A stretch of 64,000 nucleotides of DNA from an uncultured Hyphomicrobiales bacterium (GTDB lineage: Bacteria > Bacteroidota > Ignavibacteria > Kapaibacteriales > UBA2268), in assembly GCA_964513465.1 (NCBI GenBank), contig CAZEMR010000005.1:14948-78947 (forward strand). Reading direction: 5' to 3'. The notes under the pieces were generated by a model. The model saw nothing but the letters and a program-made list of their open reading frames with translations. It did not search any database and had not been told where the DNA came from. Position numbers and translations under genes: made by a program. This document shows, one piece after another, positions 3,444 through 26,418 of the stretch (position 1 is its first letter; the number at the start of each line of letters is the position of its first letter).

Positions 3444-4748
3444 CTAATTTGTTTGAAGGTGGCCTTCTTTTTTCAATAATGAGATAGTTTCATTATATTC
3501 TTTTGCCTCAGCAATTTTTGTGAATTCAATTTTAGAACCATTGTGATTTGCAATTTGTTCAATTTCATTAAGAGTAACTCGGAAAAATTCTTTTCTAATA
3601 TTGATCCGGTTAACTCTCATTCTATCAAATGCTTTATGTAATTTATTTTCCAATTCCGGGGCATTATCAGAATAAATCATGGCATGAACATCGAAAGGGA
3701 AAGGTACAGATGCGTCGCCTAGTTCTTTAACTCTATCTAACGGATCAAGTCGGCGAGTCATACCAATTTTATATACATCTTTTCCGAAGGAGCCAATATT
3801 TGAAATAATATAAACATGACCGGATTTTGTAAGTTCTGCCTGTGAAATAGCTCTTTGGTTTTTCTCTTCGGCTTCTTTTAATTTTTCTTCAAGTTCAGTC
3901 ATTTTTTGCTGTATAGAGCTAATCTCTTCATCGGAAGCAATTTCCATTTCTTTTCTGGCTTGCTCAAGAGCCCGTATATACTGCTGTTCTTCCATTTGGG
4001 CTTCTTTTAATGCTTTTTCAATTTCTTGCTTCCGTCTGGCTTCTTCTTTCATCATTTCGCGAATTTCTCTTTGTTCTTCACGTTCTTCTTCCTTTTTCTC
4101 ATGATATTCATGAACAAGTTTTAGCTCTTCGATTTTTAAATTCAGGTAATCTACCGTAATATCACTATTTATACGAGTGGCAAGTTTATTAATTATTTCG
4201 AAATTTTTATTAATTCTTTCAATCATTTTAGTAATATTTTTATAGTTGACCTGGGAAGTGGCAGCGTCACATTCACCATTAAATGCCCTTAGCATTAATT
4301 TAAGATTTTCATTCGCCATTTTTTTGCCCTCGGCTTTGCTGCCGCCTAATGTCCATTCCGAATGGCACACCACTGCGGTCTTGTTCCTGATCATTGATTT
4401 TTGCTTTTCTCTTATTTCACTGATTTTTGATTTATATAATTCAGAATTTTCGAAGTTATATTCCGGTTCGTAATATCCGAATTCTATTGCTTCTTCATCT
4501 TCCTTAAAAATCGCGACGAGTTTTTTTAGATGTTCTCGTTCAGCTTCGAGAGCTTTGATTTCTTCTAAAAGAACTCTTTTTTTGGCGTTTATTTCTTCGT
4601 ATTCTTTTTCCGTATCTTCAATTTTTTGGTAGGGCTCAAAACGTTTTTTTAAGGTGTTTTTCTCTTTCAGTAGAGTAAATAAATATATCAGCACACAGAT
4701 TAAGACTAATAATAAAAATAATACCATATCGAGACTCCTATAAAACAA
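3444..4748 (-). CDS. Membrane-anchored DUF4041 coiled-coil protein with C-terminal T5orf172 / GIY-YIG-like nuclease domain (SNIPE-like candidate anti-phage nuclease)
   Basis: N-terminal TM helix (MVLFLLLVLICVLIYLFTLL). About 250 aa of E/K-rich coiled coil. C-terminal GHVYIISNIGSFGKDVYKIGMTRRLDPLDRVKELG...LHKAFDRMRVNRINIRKEFFRVTLNEIEQI, matching the T5orf172 (GIY-YIG-like) pattern. Strongly AT-rich codon usage unlike the neighbouring genes. Confidence 0.8.
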   Translation of the reverse strand: MFYRSLDMVLFLLLVLICVLIYLFTLLKEKNTLKKRFEPYQKIEDTEKEYEEINAKKRVLLEEIKALEAEREHLKKLVAIFKEDEEAIEFGYYEPEYNFENSELYKSKISEIREKQKSMIRNKTAVVCHSEWTLGGSKAEGKKMANENLKLMLRAFNGECDAATSQVNYKNITKMIERINKNFEIINKLATRINSDITVDYLNLKIEELKLVHEYHEKKEEEREEQREIREMMKEEARRKQEIEKALKEAQMEEQQYIRALEQARKEMEIASDEEISSIQQKMTELEEKLKEAEEKNQRAISQAELTKSGHVYIISNIGSFGKDVYKIGMTRRLDPLDRVKELGDASVPFPFDVHAMIYSDNAPELENKLHKAFDRMRVNRINIRKEFFRVTLNEIEQIANHNGSKIEFTKIAEAKEYNETISLLKKEGHLQTN

Positions 4749-7816: not shown

Positions 7817-7924
7817 TTAATCGTTTAAAAATATATGATTTTCTACTTGTATTAGGTTGGTCCTAAGAGTATATCGCAAATTTTACAAGTGTTCCGCACA
7901 ATAATGACCGGAATCTCAATTTAA

Positions 7925-8152
7925 AAAGCCTCGCCGAATCCTTCGCAGGACGAAACATTTATTTCATTTAATATTCCAGCAGGGGGCTTTGTCTCGCTGG
8001 ACATTTATGATATTTATGGGAAACGCCTGAATACACTAATCGACAATGAATTCATATCCGAAGGGCACAAAAGTATACGTCTGAATTCGGCTAAACTAAG
8101 CAATGGTATATATGTCTGCGTACTGAAATCAGGTGCTGAATTGAGCATATAA
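7925..8152 (+). pseudogene. Orphan T9SS C-terminal sorting domain (type A CTD) fragment with no start codon or upstream ORF
   Basis: Open frame KASPNPSQDETFISFNIPAGGFVSLDIYDIYGKRLNTLIDNEFISEGHKSIRLNSAKLSNGIYVCVLKSGAELSI* matches the Por secretion tail pattern. An in-frame TAA sits at 7922 and no ATG is present. Confidence 0.6.
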
Positions 8153-8176
8153 GATTGATGATTATGAGATAATTTC

Positions 8177-8216
8177 GTCAAAATTCCCAACTAAAAAAGG
8201 GATGTGGCCGATGCCT
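8177..8216. terminator. Probable bidirectional terminator between the CTD fragment (+) and the Rieske-like gene (-)
   Basis: aaaaAAGGGATGtggccgatgcctCATCCCTTaattttttt. Confidence 0.55.
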
Positions 8217-8263
8217 CATCCCTTAATTTTTTTGATATGCTGCTTTGTCGGTGCCGGATAAAA

Positions 8264-8725
8264 TCAGACGCTTACCAATATGTAGTCATCTTCCGTCGTT
8301 ACGGTGTATTTCGTAAGTGGCTTATCGGCCGGGCCCGCAAGCACGGAGCCAACTTTGCTGAATTTCGAACCACCAAAGCTGACGCATTCGAAACGGTTTT
8401 TGTCGTGCTGATACTCCAGCTCGCGGCCGCCGTGGGTGCATTTGTCCTCAAATGCCAGGTAGCTGTCGGCGTCGTCGCGTGCGATGATCATTTTGTGGCC
8501 TTTGCCGTCGGCCTCGAAGGAGAGCTTGACCGCGCCGCCGGCTTTTTCTAGCGGTTTGTTTTTGGCGAGTTCCAGCCGCAGCTTGCCGCCCTCGTAAGTG
8601 TAGCTGCCCGCTTCGGCGGTGGGGGTGGACGAAGTACCTGTGATAGCCGAACACGAACCCAGCGTACCGCATGCGCATACCGCCGCCGCCGCGCCGCCGA
8701 TTTTAATGAAATCTCTGCGTCTCAT
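8264..8725 (-). CDS. Tat-exported Rieske-like domain protein with a degenerate second cluster-binding box
   Basis: Tat signal MRRRDFIKIGGAAAAVCA. Box I CTHGG, then 15 residues, then CVSFGGSKF where canonical Rieske proteins read CPCHGSxF. The second His is replaced by Phe. Confidence 0.55.
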   Translation of the reverse strand: MRRRDFIKIGGAAAAVCACGTLGSCSAITGTSSTPTAEAGSYTYEGGKLRLELAKNKPLEKAGGAVKLSFEADGKGHKMIIARDDADSYLAFEDKCTHGGRELEYQHDKNRFECVSFGGSKFSKVGSVLAGPADKPLTKYTVTTEDDYILVSV

Positions 8726-8860
8726 AAATTCCTTTCCCTATTTATAATATCAGAATTTTTTGGAAAATAAGGGAGAAATATTAATTTTCAATAAATTTAA
8801 ATATAAATACCGTCCGAAGACGGTATTCTGTAAATGAAATGTTGCTAACGGGTTGCAGGA

Positions 8861-9415
8861 TTATTTGCCCTTATTGGGCTGATCCATCTGCTGGAGCTGC
8901 TGCAATTCTTTGATTTGCATTATTTCCGAGAGCTTCGAAATCTTGTCGAGCGACATCGCGCCGCTGATATTGACCAGAGTGGCTTCGTTTTCCTCGCCGA
9001 CCAGCACGAGTAACTCCTTGATTTCCTTTTGTGTTTGTTTGGCAAGTATCCTCACATTCGAGCCTTCGTCGTTGACCAGCACGAGGCTTTTGTATTCGCT
9101 CATCGGAACTTTCGAAAGGAAATCCTTATAAACTTCGCGGGCAAGACTTTTCTCGCGCTTCAGCTCTTTGTCGAATTTATAAGTCAATACGAGCATTGCG
9201 TTGATTCCGCTGAGCATTTCGTTGACTGCGCCATTTGTGCTGTCGCTCTTCATCATTTCGCCCATAGTTTCGAACATTTCCTTATTGATCAGTACGGTTG
9301 TGAAGCCCTTTTTGCCGGTGTATTTGTCGAACAGGCTGATATAGGGCGAGTCCTGTGCCAGTGCGGTTGCGGCAGTCATGACAACTGCCAGTGCGATTAC
9401 GATTATCTTTTTCAT
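8861..9415 (-). CDS. DUF4252-like secreted protein (the third gene of an ECF-sigma module, Bacteroidetes style)
   Basis: Signal peptide MKKIIVIALAVVMTAATALAQ. Pattern ...FDKY..KKGFTTVLINKEMFE...LVLT...DKISKLSEIM is typical of DUF4252. Position is immediately downstream of the anti-sigma gene. Confidence 0.5.
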   Translation of the reverse strand: MKKIIVIALAVVMTAATALAQDSPYISLFDKYTGKKGFTTVLINKEMFETMGEMMKSDSTNGAVNEMLSGINAMLVLTYKFDKELKREKSLAREVYKDFLSKVPMSEYKSLVLVNDEGSNVRILAKQTQKEIKELLVLVGEENEATLVNISGAMSLDKISKLSEIMQIKELQQLQQMDQPNKGK

Positions 9416-21947: not shown

Positions 21948-22060
21948 TTTTTTGAGAAAATAATTTTTAAATTTAATAGTTTTATATATATAACACATGA
22001 TTAAGGCGGTTCGGGGAATCGCCTTTCATGTTTTACCCAAAAATTATCCCGGCAAACAAA

Positions 22061-23572
22061 ATGAAACAGTTTTTAATCATAAATCTCCTCGTAATTTTTA
22101 TGTTATCACCCCTTTTTTCACAGGATGCTCCCGGCCCGGACGCAATCAGCTATCGCCCGGCGGCTCTGGCCGGCGCTTTCTATCCGGCCGACCCGGATAC
22201 TCTCCGCAAACGAATCAATGAATATCTCGACCCCGACAAAGCCAAACGAATCCGCCCCGAAGCCGCAATCCACGGCATCGTAGTGCCCCATGCCGGCTAT
22301 GACTACAGCGGATGGGTGGCCGGCCGCGCCTTTCGCGAGATCGAAGGCCGCGGCTATGACGCAGTCGTCGTAATCGGGCCCAGCCACCGCGAGGTATTCG
22401 AAGGCGCGTCTATATACGACGGCGAGGCATACACCACCCCGCTCGGCAATGCGATGATCGACCAGGAGCTGGCCGATTCGATCGCCGCGGCGGATAATAC
22501 GATAATGCGTTCCCGCAAGGGCCACAGCCACGACCGCGGCAATTTCGAGAATTCGATCGAGGTGCAGATACCATTTCTGCAGGTCGTATTGCCGGATGTG
22601 CCGATTGTCCCCATCGCAATGGGAGCGCAGAATTACCACTCATCCGACGTACTGATGCAGGCAATCGTAAAGGCCGCCGAAGAGACCGGTCGCAGAATCC
22701 TGCTCGTCGGCAGCACCGATCTCTCGCATTATCATGATGTTACCGGCGCCCGCGAAATGGACATCCCGCTGGTGCAGACATTCGATAATTATGATTATAT
22801 GAAATTGTCATATAAATTATTTGCGCGCGAATGGGAGGCCTGCGGCGCCGCACCGATGATCGCGGTTATGCTCACCGCAGAGCAGCTTGGCGCAAACAAC
22901 GCAACCCCTTTGCTGTACGCAACATCAGCCGAAGCCCCCGGCGTAAAAACCAGCGACGACCGCGTCGTCGGCTATATGAGCGGCCTTTTGATGGAAGCGG
23001 ATTTTGACCCCTTCGGTAAATTCCCCGAACTCGACGAAGAGGAACGCGCGCGGCTGCTCGAAGCCGCAAAGGAATCCGTCAGCCGGAGCGTTGGCGCCGA
23101 CACCACAGCCGAACCCGGTGTGAGACTGGTCGATAAAGACCTGAGCGGACAATCTGCCGCATTCGTAACCCTTAAGAAAGAAGGCCAGTTGCGCGGGTGC
23201 ATGGGCCACACTATTGCCGAAAAGAATTTATTGATGGAGGTCGAGGAATCCGCACGGATGGCAGCCACCCGCGATATGCGATTCCGGCCGGTGGCCCCCG
23301 ACGAGCTCGATTCGCTCGATTTCGAAATCACCGTGCTGTCGCGCTTCAAACGCGTACTCGACACCGCTGAAGTCGAACCAGGCCGCGACGGCGTGTACCT
23401 CAGGCTTGGCCGCAGCGCAGGACTCTTCCTGCCGCAGGTGGCCACCGAACAGGGCTGGGACCGCGAGGCGCTGCTCGAAAACCTCGGCCAGAAGGCGGGG
23501 CTATCCCAAAACGCATACCAAATGCCCGAGGCCGAGCTGTTCATCTTCCGCTCTCTGATAATCGAGGAATAA
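22061..23572 (+). CDS. Fusion of MEMO1-like (AmmeMemoRadiSam system protein B) and AMMECR1 domains with predicted N-terminal signal peptide
   Basis: N-terminal MKQFLIINLLVIFMLSPLFSQ. Memo-like region (IVVPHAGYDYSGWVA…VVVIGPSHRE). C-terminal AMMECR1 region (AAFVTLKKEGQLRGCMG…GLFLPQVATEQGW). Confidence 0.75.
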   Translation: MKQFLIINLLVIFMLSPLFSQDAPGPDAISYRPAALAGAFYPADPDTLRKRINEYLDPDKAKRIRPEAAIHGIVVPHAGYDYSGWVAGRAFREIEGRGYDAVVVIGPSHREVFEGASIYDGEAYTTPLGNAMIDQELADSIAAADNTIMRSRKGHSHDRGNFENSIEVQIPFLQVVLPDVPIVPIAMGAQNYHSSDVLMQAIVKAAEETGRRILLVGSTDLSHYHDVTGAREMDIPLVQTFDNYDYMKLSYKLFAREWEACGAAPMIAVMLTAEQLGANNATPLLYATSAEAPGVKTSDDRVVGYMSGLLMEADFDPFGKFPELDEEERARLLEAAKESVSRSVGADTTAEPGVRLVDKDLSGQSAAFVTLKKEGQLRGCMGHTIAEKNLLMEVEESARMAATRDMRFRPVAPDELDSLDFEITVLSRFKRVLDTAEVEPGRDGVYLRLGRSAGLFLPQVATEQGWDREALLENLGQKAGLSQNAYQMPEAELFIFRSLIIEE

Positions 23573-23703
23573 TCCGGCAAAATATCTATATATGGGGTGG
23601 CTGCGAACCGGCCATCCTTTTTTTGGGAATGTAATATATATTTCTTGATGAGTTCAGTTGGATTCTATTTAAGAGTATACATTATTATTCAATAATAAAA
23701 AAA

Positions 23704-24429
23704 TCAAATTAATAATACCCAGAAAATATTCGAAATAATATTAATAAGAATCGAAATTAATATAGTAAACAAAATTGAAGCAAGAGGATACTTTTTGATA
23801 AACAGTTCGAACTTTAGAAGTCTTGGCTTTCTTATTTTCTTAAGCTCCCTTTCTAATTTATGGATATATTTTTCTGGTAGAGCTTTCATTCCAAAAAAAG
23901 CCTTACAAGAATCGCAAATTACAGGATTTTCAGTATTATATATAACATCGTATTTATAGCCATTCATGTCAAATAAACATCCCCGTGTATCTCTATGTAC
24001 AATACTGTAAACATCATCATTTGATATATCTTTAAGTGCCATTTTGATTAAGATTATTTCATAGATATTCTTTAATATAAAGTTTTCTATAGAAATATTA
24101 TTGATAAATAGTAAATGATCAATATCCGCTATAGACAGGCAAGCACAATTTTGTCCGGTTCTATGCAGATAGAAATTATCATCGAAACGATAATTCATAA
24201 TACCTAAAACAATATCAGAATATTTAATATTCTTCATGATATCCTCAGTCTCATCTCTTGAATAAACGATATCATATGTACCATAATCATTCGTTGGCCT
24301 GGGAAGATTATCAAGTGTTTCGATCTGATCGATTATAAACAATTTTGATTTGAATTTCTTAAGTTTTTTTAAATCAAGTTCATGCCGCAGATTTCCCAGA
24401 ATGACTATTTTAATTTTTGTTATTGACAT
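23704..24429 (-). CDS. AT-rich orphan hypothetical protein with C-terminal TM anchor (likely horizontally acquired)
   Basis: Codon usage is visibly far more AT-rich than the flanking genes. Soluble N-domain with Cys pairs (…GQNCAC…, …CDSCKAFF). C-terminal hydrophobic helix YPLASILFTILISILINIISNIFWVLLI. Confidence 0.55.
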   Translation of the reverse strand: MSITKIKIVILGNLRHELDLKKLKKFKSKLFIIDQIETLDNLPRPTNDYGTYDIVYSRDETEDIMKNIKYSDIVLGIMNYRFDDNFYLHRTGQNCACLSIADIDHLLFINNISIENFILKNIYEIILIKMALKDISNDDVYSIVHRDTRGCLFDMNGYKYDVIYNTENPVICDSCKAFFGMKALPEKYIHKLERELKKIRKPRLLKFELFIKKYPLASILFTILISILINIISNIFWVLLI

Positions 24430-24888
24430 TCCTTCCTCCTGTTAAGCTGTTTACGACTGATAATATGATTTTCGGTTAAAAATATTTTGGAATTAACTGG
24501 TAAAGATGATATTTAAATAAGATACGAAATATTATAAAAATATATTCGATAAATATTGAAATCTTGCTTTATTACAAAATATTAGAAATATGTGGTTTTA
24601 AAATTAGAAATGTCTTGCAAAGATTGCATGGACTGAGTGCTTGATTATTTCAATTACAGAAATTTCATGAAAAACTGGCGAACTTCCCGCCGGCACTCAC
24701 GAATTCCGCTGGAACTCCGCGGCCATAGCCCCCGGCGCATATAATTGCGTGATAACAGGCAGGGGAGATGTCAGCGCAGAAAGAATCATCATCACGAGGT
24801 GAGCCGATGCCCGCGTGAAATATTATCCGAAAAAATTCGTTTCTTAATAACTTATCGGATATGATTTCAAACGCTGACTTATATATTT

Positions 24889-26418
24889 ATGGCAAATTTC
24901 GAATCGAATGAATCCCCCAAAAAACGTCCCCGCATGAGGCGCCGGACGGTGGTCTCGCAGTCAAAAATCGATAATTTGAACATCCCGCTCGATGAGGATA
25001 TTTTCCGCCGGCTCGGGCGGCTGGCCGAGGACGCAGGCTATAGGATATACCTCGTCGGCGGCTATGTCCGCGACCATTTTCTGAAGCGCCCGAATACGGA
25101 TATCGACTGCTCGGTGATCGGCGATTCGATTGATTTTGCCAAACGCGCCGCAGAGCGGTTTAATTCCAAAGCCGTGCTCTACGAAAAATTCCGCACCGCG
25201 CTTGTGCCGGTCGGGGAGTACAAGATCGAATTCGTGGGCACCCGCAAGGAGGAATATCTGCCCGATTCGCGCAAGCCGATCGTCACGGTCGGCACGCTCG
25301 AGGACGACCTTCGCCGCCGCGATTTTACGGTCAATGCGATGGCCGTTTCGCTGAACGAAGACAATTTCGGAGAAGTGATCGACCTCTTCGGCGGGCTTCG
25401 CGACCTCGACGCAAAGCTATTGCGAACGCCGCTCGATCCGGTGGAAACATACAGCGACGACCCGCTGCGGATGATGCGGGCCGCAAGGTTTGCCGCGCAG
25501 CTCGGATTCACAGTCGATCCGCCTTCGTTCGACGCAATCGGGAGAATGGCCGAACGCATCAAAATCGTATCGCAGGAGCGGGTCACGGACGAAATGCTGA
25601 AAATCCTCGAATCGCCCAATCCGGCTCATGGCTTCCGCATACTTCACGCAAGCGGCCTGCTTAAATATATATTCCCCGAACTCGAAGAGCTTGCCGGGGT
25701 GGACATCGTCCAGGAAGACAGCAAAACATTCGGCCACAAAGACGTATTCAACCACACGCTGCAGGTGCTCGAGAACGTCGCAGGGCGTTCGGATAATCTC
25801 TGGCTGCGCTTCGCAGCTCTGGTGCACGATATTGCCAAGCCCCGCACCAAGAAATACGTGCCCGGCACCGGCTGGACATTCCACGGCCACGAAGAGCTCG
25901 GCGCGCGATATATGAAAAAATTATTCCGAAAAATGAAGCTTCCGATGGAGCATCTGCCGTACGTCGAAAAGCTCGTCCGGCTGCACCAGCGCCCGATGGC
26001 CCTCGTTGACGAGGGCGTTACCGATTCCGCTGTCCGCCGCCTGGCCGTTGCCGCCGACGATGCGCTCGACGACCTCTTTCTGCTATGCCGTTCGGACATC
26101 ACCACCGGCAACCCGCGGCTGACCGAGCAGTATATGAATAATTACGAAATCGTCTGGCATAAGGTGCTCGAGGTGCAGGAAAAAGACCGCCTGCGCGCAT
26201 TCCAGTCGCCCGTGCGTGGCGATGAGATCATGGAGGTGCTGGGTATCGAACCCTCGCGGATAGTCGGTGCAATCAAATCGGAGATAGAGGAGGCAATACT
26301 CGACGGCGTAATCCCGAACGAATACGATCCCGCCCGCGAATATTTTATGTCCCACAAGGACGAATGGCTGGAAAAATATCGAATGGAATTTAAGAATTTC
26401 CGGAAAAACCGGAATTAA
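24889..26418 (+). CDS. cca: CCA-adding tRNA nucleotidyltransferase / poly(A) polymerase family with HD domain
   Basis: Head domain GGYVRDHFL…DIDCSV…RRDFTVNAMAV. HD motif HDIAKP. Confidence 0.8.
   Translation: MANFESNESPKKRPRMRRRTVVSQSKIDNLNIPLDEDIFRRLGRLAEDAGYRIYLVGGYVRDHFLKRPNTDIDCSVIGDSIDFAKRAAERFNSKAVLYEKFRTALVPVGEYKIEFVGTRKEEYLPDSRKPIVTVGTLEDDLRRRDFTVNAMAVSLNEDNFGEVIDLFGGLRDLDAKLLRTPLDPVETYSDDPLRMMRAARFAAQLGFTVDPPSFDAIGRMAERIKIVSQERVTDEMLKILESPNPAHGFRILHASGLLKYIFPELEELAGVDIVQEDSKTFGHKDVFNHTLQVLENVAGRSDNLWLRFAALVHDIAKPRTKKYVPGTGWTFHGHEELGARYMKKLFRKMKLPMEHLPYVEKLVRLHQRPMALVDEGVTDSAVRRLAVAADDALDDLFLLCRSDITTGNPRLTEQYMNNYEIVWHKVLEVQEKDRLRAFQSPVRGDEIMEVLGIEPSRIVGAIKSEIEEAILDGVIPNEYDPAREYFMSHKDEWLEKYRMEFKNFRKNRN

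What the first reader, a model, noticed from the sequence alone, without database searches (positions are those of the whole stretch)
23573..24888. AT-rich orphan island encoding a tail-anchored protein between two housekeeping genes
About 1.3 kb of visibly AT-rich DNA, in contrast to the GC-rich genes on either side, holds a single minus-strand gene (241 aa) and long AT-rich flanks. The product has no family recognisable by eye. It has a soluble N-domain with two Cys pairs (GQNCAC, CDSCKAFF), a basic linker and a C-terminal hydrophobic anchor. That layout is seen in membrane-disrupting effectors of abortive-infection systems and in toxins. Together with the compositional contrast, this suggests a horizontally acquired defence or toxin gene of unknown type.
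Basis: partly seen in the sequence, partly recalled or inferred. Interest (0 to 1): 0.6.

Follow-up and report, generated by a model that had tools for sequence, protein, structure and literature searches.

The report
Inserted gene for membrane-anchored dead metalloprotease
A 1.3-kb AT-rich insertion in a Kapaibacterium genome carries one mobile gene, also found as an integron cassette, for a membrane-anchored protein that looks like a zinc protease without its catalytic site; it is a plausible but untested phage-defence or conflict gene.

Summary
Window 23573-24888 is the most AT-rich stretch of the 64 kb: gene GC 0.275, GC3 0.24, against about 0.57 and 0.67-0.70 for both neighbours (z = -4.3). 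It holds one minus-strand gene, 23704-24429 (241 aa).

It is an insertion. In the closest relative found, the same Memo-AMMECR1 gene (74% identical) is followed after 22 bp by cca.

The protein belongs to an unnamed family: 119 clusters at 90% identity, 351 at 50%, with no Pfam, NCBIfam, PADLOC or PHROG hit.
- It is scattered over more than 15 phyla.
- Its GC is lower than the surrounding DNA in 80 of 85 loci.
- It has no conserved partner gene.
- It is a true integron cassette in Vibrio species and on a Tenderia plasmid.

Two AlphaFold models (pLDDT about 90) both match archaemetzincin (peptidase M54) best, and a profile-profile alignment agrees. The family lacks HExxH and the Met-turn but keeps a His-Cys3 zinc knuckle (H145, C151, C172, C175). 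A basic linker and a C-terminal transmembrane helix follow.

Horizontal acquisition is well supported. A defence or abortive-infection role is plausible (about 0.35-0.4) but unproven.

The parts
23573..24888 (.). AT-rich island, a 1,316-bp insertion between the Memo-AMMECR1 fusion gene and cca
   Evidence: GC profile. The empty site in relative L093 has only a 22-bp spacer between the two genes.
23704..24429 (-). Gene for the 241-aa tail-anchored protein (identical to MFP4528169.1, Candidatus Kapaibacterium sp.); stop codon at 23704-23706
   Evidence: ORF list. Identical protein P0001. Family of 119 clusters at 90% identity and 351 clusters at 50% identity.
23875..24429 (-). Residues 1-185: cytoplasmic alpha/beta domain with a degenerate archaemetzincin (metzincin, M54-like) fold. 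No HExxH and no Met-turn.
   Evidence: AF2 pLDDT 89.7. Foldseek top hits are 2x7m, 4axq and 3zvs, E 1e-4 to 2e-3, TM(target) 0.61. Replicated with relative P0112, E 4e-6, with all four archaemetzincin entries in ranks 1-5. hhalign E 1.1e-4. No HExxH at the helix in any of 264 family members.
23905..23997 (-). Residues 145-175: predicted zinc knuckle H145-x5-C151-x20-C172-x2-C175, with invariant D154
   Evidence: Conserved in 146, 146, 145, 144 and 146 of 146 sequences. Aligns with the H-C-x4-C...C-x2-C segment of archaemetzincins. Metal binding is inferred, not shown.
23788..23874 (-). Residues 186-214: basic juxtamembrane linker (conserved LExELKxIxKP motif, E195 in 142 of 146) and an amphipathic helix
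   Evidence: 11 K/R against 4 D/E. Helices 188-196 and 203-213 in the model. Conservation.
23707..23787 (-). Residues 215-241: single C-terminal transmembrane helix (tail anchor). The protein ends inside the hydrophobic segment.
   Evidence: Highest hydropathy windows start at 215-223. Helix 215-240 in the model. P215 conserved in 137 of 146.
24435..24440 (-). Shine-Dalgarno AGGAGG, 5 nt upstream of the ATG. It is the strongest SD among the 53 long ORFs of the window.
   Evidence: Sequence. SD survey: 12 of 53 by loose criteria.
23594..23628 (.). GC-rich hairpin flanked by a T-run (+ strand) and an A-run. Probably a bidirectional terminator for the convergent Memo-AMMECR1 gene and the 241-aa gene.
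   Evidence: Terminator scan: 10-pair stem with 6 GC pairs, followed by TTTTTTT. Function inferred.
24430..24679 (-). AT-rich (GC 0.256) non-coding region upstream of the gene, presumably holding its promoter
   Evidence: Composition. No ORF longer than 35 aa. No Rfam match.
24680..24830 (.). GC-rich (0.563) 150-bp segment of unknown origin inside the island
   Evidence: Composition. No ORF, no Rfam hit, fold z-score about 0, no similarity to any fetched locus. Absent from the empty site.
22028..23572 (+). Left flank: AmmeMemoRadiSam system protein B/A fusion (Memo + AMMECR1), a host gene
   Evidence: NCBIfam TIGR04336 and TIGR04335. Pfam domains listed.
24889..26418 (+). Right flank: CCA tRNA nucleotidyltransferase-like gene (PolyA_pol + RNA-binding + HD domains), a host gene
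   Evidence: Pfam. NCBIfam TIGR02692, below cutoff.

Best explanation
The island is a horizontally acquired 1.3-kb insertion. It split a formerly adjacent gene pair, Memo-AMMECR1 and cca. It carries one self-contained mobile gene.

The product is a tail-anchored inner-membrane protein. A cytoplasmic N-terminal domain (residues 1-185) has the archaemetzincin (peptidase M54, metzincin) fold. It has lost the HExxHxxGxxH catalytic zinc site and the Met-turn. It keeps the family's second, structural zinc site as a His-Cys3 knuckle (H145, C151, C172, C175). A basic amphipathic linker and one C-terminal transmembrane helix hold this domain against the inner face of the membrane.

The gene belongs to an unnamed family that moves alone. 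It is an integron cassette in Vibrio and on plasmids, and an AT-rich singleton elsewhere.

Most likely function (inferred, not shown): a stand-alone conflict or anti-phage protein. The dead-protease domain would act as a binding or sensor module for a foreign protein or peptide. The anchor would either place it where it blocks infection or, on clustering, damage the membrane (abortive infection).

Confidence by step:
- insertion and horizontal origin: about 0.9
- tail-anchor topology: about 0.85
- archaemetzincin-derived pseudo-protease fold: about 0.7
- defence or conflict role: about 0.35-0.4
- the specific sensor-plus-membrane mechanism: about 0.2

The overall confidence given (0.4) is for the whole statement including the defence or conflict role.
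For: Insertion.
- L093, the closest relative, has Memo-AMMECR1 at 74% identity and the same upstream SRP54 and transketolase genes. Its Memo-AMMECR1 stop codon is followed 22 bp later by the cca start, MASADQSNKGKKRPRIRGRR.
- L094 (53% identity) also lacks the gene.

Composition.
- GC3 is 0.24 against 0.67-0.70 in the neighbours, z = -4.3.

Family mobility.
- 77 species loci over more than 15 phyla.
- No recurrent neighbour in about 85 loci.
- Gene GC below the flanks in 80 of 85 loci, mean -10 points.
- One cluster at 90% identity is shared by V. metschnikovii, V. vulnificus and V. parahaemolyticus.
- In L009 the gene is bracketed by 125-nt attC-type repeats. A repeated element also sits directly after the stop codon in L003, L098 and L099.
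- An integron integrase (TIGR02249, 398 bits) lies next to it in L098.
- It occurs on two mobilizable plasmids.
- A second, divergent copy occurs in another Kapaibacterium (L079).

Fold.
- Searches give archaemetzincins as the top hits for two different family members.
- hhalign gives E 1.1e-4 over 161 columns. It pairs H145, C151, C172 and C175 with the H-C-x4-C...CxxC segment.
- The motifs can be read directly.
- No HExxH in 264 members.

Conflict context.
- In Vibrio arrays the gene lies between HigBA and ParE/Phd cassettes and near NERD and Mrr_cat cassettes.
- A 61%-identical homologue sits directly after a type I R-M operon.
- At least 11 differently named PADLOC families hit the 133 immediate neighbours.
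- The same window has a second AT-rich single-gene island, which is PD-Lambda-1.
- In V. cholerae, 18% of the tested unknown-function cassettes of the chromosomal integron had anti-phage activity (bioRxiv 10.1101/2024.07.02.601686).
Against: - No experiment and no homology ties the family to defence. PADLOC, Pfam, NCBIfam and PHROGs are all empty.
- Many loci are singletons among housekeeping genes.
- Integron cassettes carry many functions, and most tested ones were not defensive.
- The fold link is remote. TM(query) is 0.46-0.48, hhalign probability is only 57% against a 5-sequence template, and the two AF2 models share one alignment.
- Zinc binding and loss of catalysis are inferred from motifs. 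S28, H145 and D154 are invariant and could form a new active site.
- No coordinates were available to check the geometry.
Confidence: 0.4

Rival explanations
1. It is still an enzyme. The archaemetzincin scaffold acquired a new active site, for example around invariant S28, H145 and D154 or conserved E115 and Y123. The protein would be a membrane-tethered hydrolase acting on a host or foreign substrate, either as a toxin-like effector or in an accessory metabolic or processing role.
For: S28 is conserved in 145 of 146, H145 in 146, D154 in 146, Y123 in 138 and E115 in 122. That is more conservation than a passive scaffold needs. Only three Cys are available for a tetrahedral zinc site, so either H145 or D154 is free for another role.
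Against: All three His of HExxHxxGxxH are missing from the helix, and the Met-turn is replaced by C-L-F. H145 lies exactly next to the position of the missing first Cys of the archaemetzincin Cys4 site, which fits a role as a ligand. No hydrolase family matches.
Confidence: 0.2
2. It is a mobile accessory membrane protein with a role outside conflict. For example, it could be a membrane-tethered scaffold or regulator that sequesters a cytoplasmic partner, anti-sigma-like, or a stress-adaptation factor. It would be carried by integrons like many other adaptive cassettes.
For: The architecture is a cytoplasmic Zn-binding domain followed by one TM helix. Some relatives add Sel1-like or WG-like domains beyond the TM (P0188, P0252), as signalling proteins do. 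Many loci lie in housekeeping surroundings. Most integron cassettes tested are not defensive.
Against: No conserved partner such as a sigma factor lies nearby in about 85 loci. A host-integrated regulator is hard to square with the extreme patchiness and persistently foreign composition. The neighbours are enriched in TA, R-M and defence-type genes.
Confidence: 0.25
3. It is the toxin of a toxin-antitoxin or addiction module whose antitoxin is unannotated: a small ORF or an RNA in the 459-bp upstream region, possibly the GC-rich 24680-24830 segment with its terminator-like hairpin.
For: The upstream non-coding region is long and contains an unexplained GC-rich segment and a minus-strand terminator-like hairpin at 24691-24677. 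The Vibrio copies lie among TA cassettes.
Against: The gene has no conserved adjacent small gene in any locus. The Vibrio cassettes hold this ORF alone between attC sites. The GC-rich segment shows no structure signal (z about 0), no Rfam hit and no conservation. Membrane toxins of RNA-antitoxin systems are usually small peptides, not 241-aa proteins (general knowledge).
Confidence: 0.05
4. It is not a real gene: a chance ORF or a decaying pseudogene in AT-rich junk DNA.
For: None, apart from the lack of annotation.
Against: The ORF is 241 codons long in 27% GC DNA and has a strong SD. There are hundreds of full-length relatives with invariant motifs, down to 24% identity. The predicted fold is confident.
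Confidence: 0.02

Closest known systems
Archaemetzincin (AmzA/AMZ; MEROPS M54; Pfam PF07998 Peptidase_M54; PDB 2x7m, 4axq, 3zvs, 3lmc)
   Same: It is the best and only significant structural match for two family members. The beta-strand motif is shared: D-x-Y..NFVFG in archaemetzincin against DDNFYLHR here. So is the C-terminal H-(C)-x4/5-C ... C-x-x-C zinc knuckle with near-identical spacing, 18 against 20 residues.
   Different: HExxHxxGxxH is absent. The first Cys of the Cys4 site is replaced, probably by H145. The Met-turn C-x-M is C-L-F. About 12 residues are inserted after the long helix. A basic linker and a transmembrane anchor are added. It does not hit the Pfam model. It is a mobile bacterial gene rather than a conserved archaeal or eukaryotic one.
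Catalytically dead metzincins used as binding modules (e.g. ADAM22, present in the hit list as 5y2z, 8hpy, 3g5c)
   Same: A metzincin fold that, by general knowledge, is catalytically inactive and is attached to a membrane. This is a precedent for a protease scaffold reused for binding (weak hits).
   Different: ADAM22 is eukaryotic and extracellular, with type I topology. The relation is only at superfamily level. The analogy is functional and comes from general knowledge; it was not tested here.
Single-cassette anti-phage proteins of Vibrio chromosomal integrons with a transmembrane segment and no known domain (e.g. 'Brigantia' of V. cholerae; LDILCD_22380 of V. vulnificus)
   Same: One gene per cassette, a membrane segment, no database annotation and a Vibrio integron location.
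   Different: No V. cholerae member of this family turned up. LDILCD_22380 is described as 'small'.
PD-Lambda-1 (DUF4041 + T5orf172), present in this same window at 3444-4748
   Same: An AT-rich (GC 0.33) single-gene island in the same genome, and it is a recognised single-protein anti-phage system.
   Different: The protein is unrelated, has no membrane anchor and carries a nuclease-type domain.
Lit (e14 prophage zinc metalloprotease, abortive infection)
   Same: A stand-alone protein of a mobile element, built on a zinc-protease scaffold and used in phage exclusion (general knowledge).
   Different: Lit has an active HExxH site and cleaves EF-Tu. There is no sequence or fold match here, and the protein studied lacks HExxH.

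Membership tests
Archaemetzincin / peptidase M54 | Metzincin alpha/beta fold closest to the AmzA structures | tested here: met
   Foldseek: 2x7m E 1.2e-4, prob 1.0, TM(target) 0.61. For relative P0112: E 4.2e-6, with 2x7m, 4axq, 3zvs and 3lmc in ranks 1-5. hhalign E 1.1e-4, prob 57%.
Archaemetzincin / peptidase M54 | Catalytic zinc motif HExxHxxGxxH | tested here: not met
   The long helix 114-132 reads IENFILKNIYEIILIKMAL. None of 264 family members has HExxH there. Only H145 matches the third His.
Archaemetzincin / peptidase M54 | Met-turn (C-x-M) below the active site | tested here: not met
   C151-L-F153-D154. Position 153 is F in 131 and Y in 13 of 146.
Archaemetzincin / peptidase M54 | Second, structural zinc site of four Cys (HC-x4-C ... 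C-x2-C) | tested here: inconclusive
   Three of the four Cys are conserved at aligned positions. The first is missing, with invariant H145 adjacent. Metal binding was not measured.
Archaemetzincin / peptidase M54 | Match to the Pfam PF07998 or NCBIfam sequence model | tested here: not met
   No hit at E up to 10 for the protein and at E up to 1 for 146 relatives.
Integron gene cassette | A single promoterless ORF bounded by attC recombination sites in an array next to intI | tested here: not met
   In the window there is no repeated or attC-like element, no array and no intI. The island lies between two housekeeping genes. Homologues do meet the test: L009 and L003 (Vibrio attC-type repeats), L099, and L098 with an integron integrase.
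Known anti-phage defence systems (PADLOC-DB v2) | Match to a defence-protein model | tested here: not met
   No hit at E up to 10. DefenseFinder models were not available.
Tail-anchored membrane protein | A single transmembrane helix at the extreme C-terminus, no N-terminal signal peptide, and a cytoplasmic N-terminal domain | tested here: met
   The only hydrophobic segment is 215-241, and the protein ends within it. It is preceded by 11 K/R (positive-inside rule). The N-terminus is a beta-strand of the domain. The topology itself is inferred.
Type II toxin-antitoxin module | A conserved adjacent small partner gene | tested here: not met
   No neighbour family recurs in more than 5 of about 85 loci, and none recurs directly adjacent. 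The Vibrio cassettes hold one ORF.
Phage-encoded gene (e.g. superinfection exclusion) | Presence in phage genomes or phage protein families | tested here: not met
   tblastn finds nothing in 50,697 phage records. No PHROG hit. Nothing significant in BFVD.

The most novel reading that the evidence does not exclude
The family is a previously unrecognised stand-alone anti-phage (abortive-infection or exclusion) system. A protease-dead archaemetzincin domain, tethered to the inner face of the membrane, recognises a phage protein as a pseudo-substrate. It then acts through its anchor. The gene spreads through bacteria of more than 15 phyla as a minimal one-gene integron cassette.
Probability: 0.3. 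Interest if true: 0.7.

Novelty: new variant of a known kind. Interest (0 to 1): 0.45.

Why it matters
If the defence reading is right, this is a very compact module of about 730 bp. It would be a broadly distributed immune gene built on a fold not so far linked to bacterial immunity. It would also be a bacterial example of a pseudo-protease used as a sensor.

Even without that, the work gives three concrete results.
- It defines an unnamed protein family: at least 351 clusters at 50% identity, absent from Pfam, NCBIfam, PADLOC and PHROGs.
- It gives the family a fold, a probable metal site, a topology and a mode of spread (integron cassettes).
- It gives archaemetzincins, whose own cellular role is poorly understood, a large set of divergent bacterial relatives.

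The locus itself is a clean before-and-after example of a single-gene insertion between two housekeeping genes.

Tried and rejected
- Sequence-model searches of the protein found nothing: Pfam, PADLOC, NCBIfam and PHROGs. A Pfam scan of 146 relatives gave only scattered CxxC-type noise (DUF6485, Fin, Gin).
- A family-profile search against PDB sequences gave only spurious C2H2 zinc-finger matches to the TEKPxxC stretch.
- My third and last homologue search used a 42-aa archaemetzincin motif and returned nothing. That search was wasted. I worked around it with two plasmid-borne bacterial archaemetzincins and PDB alignments.
- A regex search for attC sites failed even on known Vibrio arrays. I replaced it with repeat detection.
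- Target-site duplications or terminal inverted repeats at the island ends: only low-complexity AT matches.
- Rfam and folding of the island's non-coding parts: nothing.
- Similarity of the non-coding parts to phages or to other loci: nothing meaningful.
- A conserved partner gene: none. The small PD-(D/E)xK-like neighbour appears in only 2 loci.
- Literature: nothing links archaemetzincin to phage defence, and locus tag Palpr_0524 appears in no paper. The integron-defence papers could not be linked by sequence.
- Rejected: the GQNCAC Cys pair as a functional motif.
- Rejected: the ORF as a chance product.
Full report
**1. The observation**

The coordinates are exact. The Memo-AMMECR1 fusion gene (AmmeMemoRadiSam B/A) ends at 23572 and cca starts at 24889. 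Between them lies a single real ORF, 23704-24429 on the minus strand (241 aa, ATG).

GC in 300-bp windows drops from 0.55-0.65 to 0.25-0.33.
- The gene has GC 0.275 and GC3 0.244.
- The two neighbours have GC 0.57/0.56 and GC3 0.67/0.70.
- Among 726-bp windows of the 64 kb (mean 0.490, sd 0.050) the gene is the minimum, z = -4.27.
- The only other stretch at or below 0.33 is at about 4.0-4.9 kb.

The island is not uniformly AT-rich: 24680-24830 has GC 0.563. The gene has the strongest Shine-Dalgarno (AGGAGG, 24435-24440) of the window's 53 long ORFs, most of which have none. A GC hairpin at 23594-23618, with T- and A-runs on either side, looks like a bidirectional terminator for the two convergent genes.

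**2. It is an insertion**

The window protein is identical to MFP4528169.1 of a Candidatus Kapaibacterium sp. MAG (Bacteroidota).
- The closest relative of the Memo-AMMECR1 gene that I could find is P0266, 74% identical, on contig L093. L093 has the same upstream gene order (SRP54, then the two transketolase halves).
- In L093 the stop codon is followed 22 bp later by an ATG. The product, MASADQSNKGKKRPRIRGRRKLVS...PLEDDIFQKLGKIAEKAGY, is the N-terminus of cca. The window has MANFESNESPKKRPRMRRRTVVS...PLDEDIFRRLGRLAEDAGY.
- A more distant relative (L094, 53%) also has a PolyA_pol-family gene 66 bp after Memo-AMMECR1 and no 241-aa gene. That contig looks rearranged.
- A third relative (L092) carries different AT-rich cargo after the AMMECR1 end.

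I found no target-site duplication, terminal repeats, attC site, integrase or tRNA at the island ends. The mechanism of insertion is therefore unknown.

**3. The family**

The word-indexed search found 119 clusters at 90% identity. The exhaustive HMMER search found 351 clusters at 50% identity with E up to 1e-3, 241 of them at E up to 1e-10.
- Nearly all members are 235-260 aa and match over the full length. None has a Pfam domain.
- Pfam, NCBIfam, PADLOC and PHROGs give nothing for the protein. Pfam gives nothing for 146 relatives either.

A species-level scan returned 77 loci. They cover:
- Bacteroidota, Chlorobiota, Campylobacterota, Desulfobacterota and Bdellovibrionota;
- Gamma-, Beta- and Alphaproteobacteria;
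- Planctomycetota, Acidobacteriota, Nitrospirota, Armatimonadota, Lentisphaerota and Kiritimatiellota;
- Omnitrophota, Bacillota, Mycoplasmatota and Patescibacteria;
- a second, only 33%-identical, copy in another Kapaibacterium.

All-against-all comparison of ORFs within 4 kb in about 85 loci found no recurrent neighbour. The gene is poorer in GC than its flanks in 80 of 85 loci: mean -10 points, and in 78% of loci with long flanks the gap exceeds 5 points. It is absent from 50,697 phage genomes and present on two mobilizable plasmids.

**4. It travels as an integron cassette**

- In V. parahaemolyticus (L009) the gene at 8001-8783 is bracketed by two copies of the array's 125-nt attC-type repeat, at 7850-7972 and 8786-8907.
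- The same holds in the V. metschnikovii chromosome-2 array (L003), where it lies between HigBA and ParE/Phd cassettes.
- The same holds on a V. campbellii plasmid (L099).
- On the Ca. Tenderia electrophaga plasmid (L098) it is the second gene after an integron integrase (TIGR02249, 398.6 bits, cutoff 265). A 45-49-nt repeat follows each gene.
- One cluster at 90% identity is shared by V. metschnikovii, V. vulnificus and V. parahaemolyticus.

The window copy itself shows no cassette features.

**5. The protein**

AlphaFold2 with a 43-sequence alignment gives pLDDT 89.7 and pTM 0.85.
- The model has a mixed beta-sheet with helices (residues 1-110) and a long helix (114-132).
- A loop region follows that carries the conserved H145-x-[DE]-T-R-G-C151-L-F-D154 motif, then a knuckle with C172-x-x-C175.
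- Helices 188-196 and 203-213 follow, then a final helix 215-240.

Foldseek against the PDB returns archaemetzincins first: 2x7m at E 1.2e-4, probability 1.0, TM normalised to the target 0.61, then 4axq and 3zvs. Weak adamalysin/ADAM/fragilysin hits follow, so all hits are metzincins. I repeated this with a relative only 28% identical (P0112; pLDDT 90.5). Again all four archaemetzincin entries filled ranks 1-5, with 2x7m at E 4.2e-6. The two models share one alignment, so they are not fully independent.

The archaemetzincin signature, read from PDB alignments, is HE(I/L)GHxxGLxHC-x3/4-C-x-M-x16-C-x-x-C. I built a small archaemetzincin alignment from two plasmid-borne bacterial members and three PDB fragments. 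hhalign against the 146-sequence family profile gave E 1.1e-4, probability 57%, over 161 columns. It pairs:
- H145 with the third His of the catalytic motif. That His directly precedes the first Cys of the Cys4 site;
- C151 with the second Cys;
- C172 and C175 with the CxxC.

The strand motif DDNFYLHR also lines up with D(L/I)Y..NFVFG.

What is missing is the catalytic machinery.
- No member has HExxH in the helix.
- The Met-turn residue is Phe or Tyr.

In 146 diverse sequences:

| Residue | Conserved in (of 146) |
|---|---|
| H145, C151, D154 | 146 |
| S28, C172 | 145 |
| C175 | 144 |
| E195 | 142 |
| G12 | 141 |
| Y123 | 138 |
| P215 | 137 |
| E115 | 122 |

My reading is a protease-dead archaemetzincin derivative that keeps the structural zinc site as His-Cys3. 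Zinc binding and inactivity are inferences.

The C-terminal 27 residues are the only hydrophobic segment, and 11 K/R precede them. The domain should therefore face the cytoplasm, which also suits a Cys-ligated zinc. A few relatives continue beyond the helix with Sel1-like or WG-like domains or extra helices.

**6. What it probably does**

Firm: it is a self-sufficient mobile gene that hosts acquire repeatedly and do not assimilate in composition.

Suggestive of conflict or defence:
- the integron location among TA, NERD and Mrr-type cassettes;
- a 61%-identical homologue directly downstream of hsdR-hsdS-AAA_13-hsdM;
- PADLOC hits among the 133 immediate neighbours to PDC-M01A, PDC-S13, PDC-S15, PDC-S31, SoFic, NsnA, PtuA, PD-T4-2_A, HEC-01B, a type I specificity subunit and methyltransferases, with integrases, transposases and HipA beside them;
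- the other AT-rich island of this window, 3444-4748, which is PD-Lambda-1 (E 2e-166);
- the report that 18% of the unknown-function cassettes tested from the V. cholerae chromosomal integron protect against phages (bioRxiv 10.1101/2024.07.02.601686).

Against:
- no homology to any known system;
- many singleton loci in housekeeping surroundings;
- cassettes have many other roles.

I put a defence or conflict role at about 0.35-0.4. The specific idea is a pseudo-protease sensor on the membrane that blocks infection or kills the cell on clustering. I put that at about 0.2. Rivals are a rewired hydrolase, a non-conflict membrane scaffold or regulator, and a toxin with a hidden antitoxin.

**7. 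Comparison with what is known, and novelty**

By fold it descends from, or is related to, archaemetzincins. It fails their defining catalytic features and their sequence model, so I do not file it as an M54 peptidase. It resembles dead metzincins such as ADAM22 only by analogy.

It may or may not be related to TM-containing integron defence cassettes already tested (Brigantia; LDILCD_22380). I could not obtain their sequences.

It is best described as a new variant of a known kind: an uncharacterised mobile accessory or defence-candidate gene on a known fold. Interest is moderate. The horizontal-transfer story is ordinary. The family, its fold and its cassette lifestyle are new and readily testable.

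Noticed in passing
window 3444-4748 (-): A second AT-rich island (GC 0.333, GC3 0.278) encodes a 434-aa DUF4041 + T5orf172/MUG113 protein. It matches the PADLOC PD-Lambda-1 models at E 2e-166, so it is a known single-gene anti-phage system in the same window.
   Followed up: partly
window 24680-24830: A 150-bp GC-rich (0.563) segment inside the AT-rich island. It has no ORF, no Rfam hit, a fold z-score of about 0 on both strands and no similarity to any fetched locus. A terminator-like hairpin lies on the minus strand at 24691-24677. The segment is absent from the empty site.
   Followed up: yes
L092 470-2251: In a relative (AMMECR1 end 62% identical), the position after the Memo-AMMECR1 gene holds different AT-rich cargo: a 233-aa Cys-rich secreted-looking protein and a 210-aa protein. 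The site may be a recurrent landing place.
   Followed up: partly
L100 1-7900: A 61%-identical homologue (P0009) lies directly downstream of a type I restriction-modification operon with an embedded AAA_13 ATPase (hsdR-hsdS-AAA_13-hsdM). Three small unknown ORFs lie around it.
   Followed up: no
L008 8895-9323 and L014 7495-8001: Two homologous small proteins (142 and 168 aa; BLASTP E 1e-8; EVExG(K/R) motif, both ending in IIGY; possibly PD-(D/E)xK-like) lie next to the family gene in a Halarcobacter and in an unnamed metagenome scaffold. They occur in no other of about 100 loci.
   Followed up: yes
L098 4309-6618 (Ca. Tenderia electrophaga plasmid CP013100.1): A plasmid-borne integron. The integrase matches TIGR02249 at 398.6 bits, 45-49-nt repeats follow each gene, and the family gene is the second cassette.
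   Followed up: partly
proteins P0188, P0225, P0130, P0252: Longer family members (354-430 aa) continue past the transmembrane helix with extra domains: Sel1-like repeats in P0188, and further helices plus a WG-like motif in P0252. This suggests that in some lineages the C-terminus is a sensing or binding module outside the cytoplasm.
   Followed up: no
L094 9557-10801: In a 53%-identical relative, the cca-like and polyprenyl-synthase genes appear as truncated, re-oriented ORFs next to Memo-AMMECR1. This is either an assembly chimera or a real rearrangement of this neighbourhood.
   Followed up: no
L013 7289-7993: A LOG/'LDcluster4' (SLOG-type) gene ends 7 bp before the family gene in one metagenomic contig. 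It has a weak PADLOC PsyrA hit (E 2e-7). This pairing was seen only once.
   Followed up: partly
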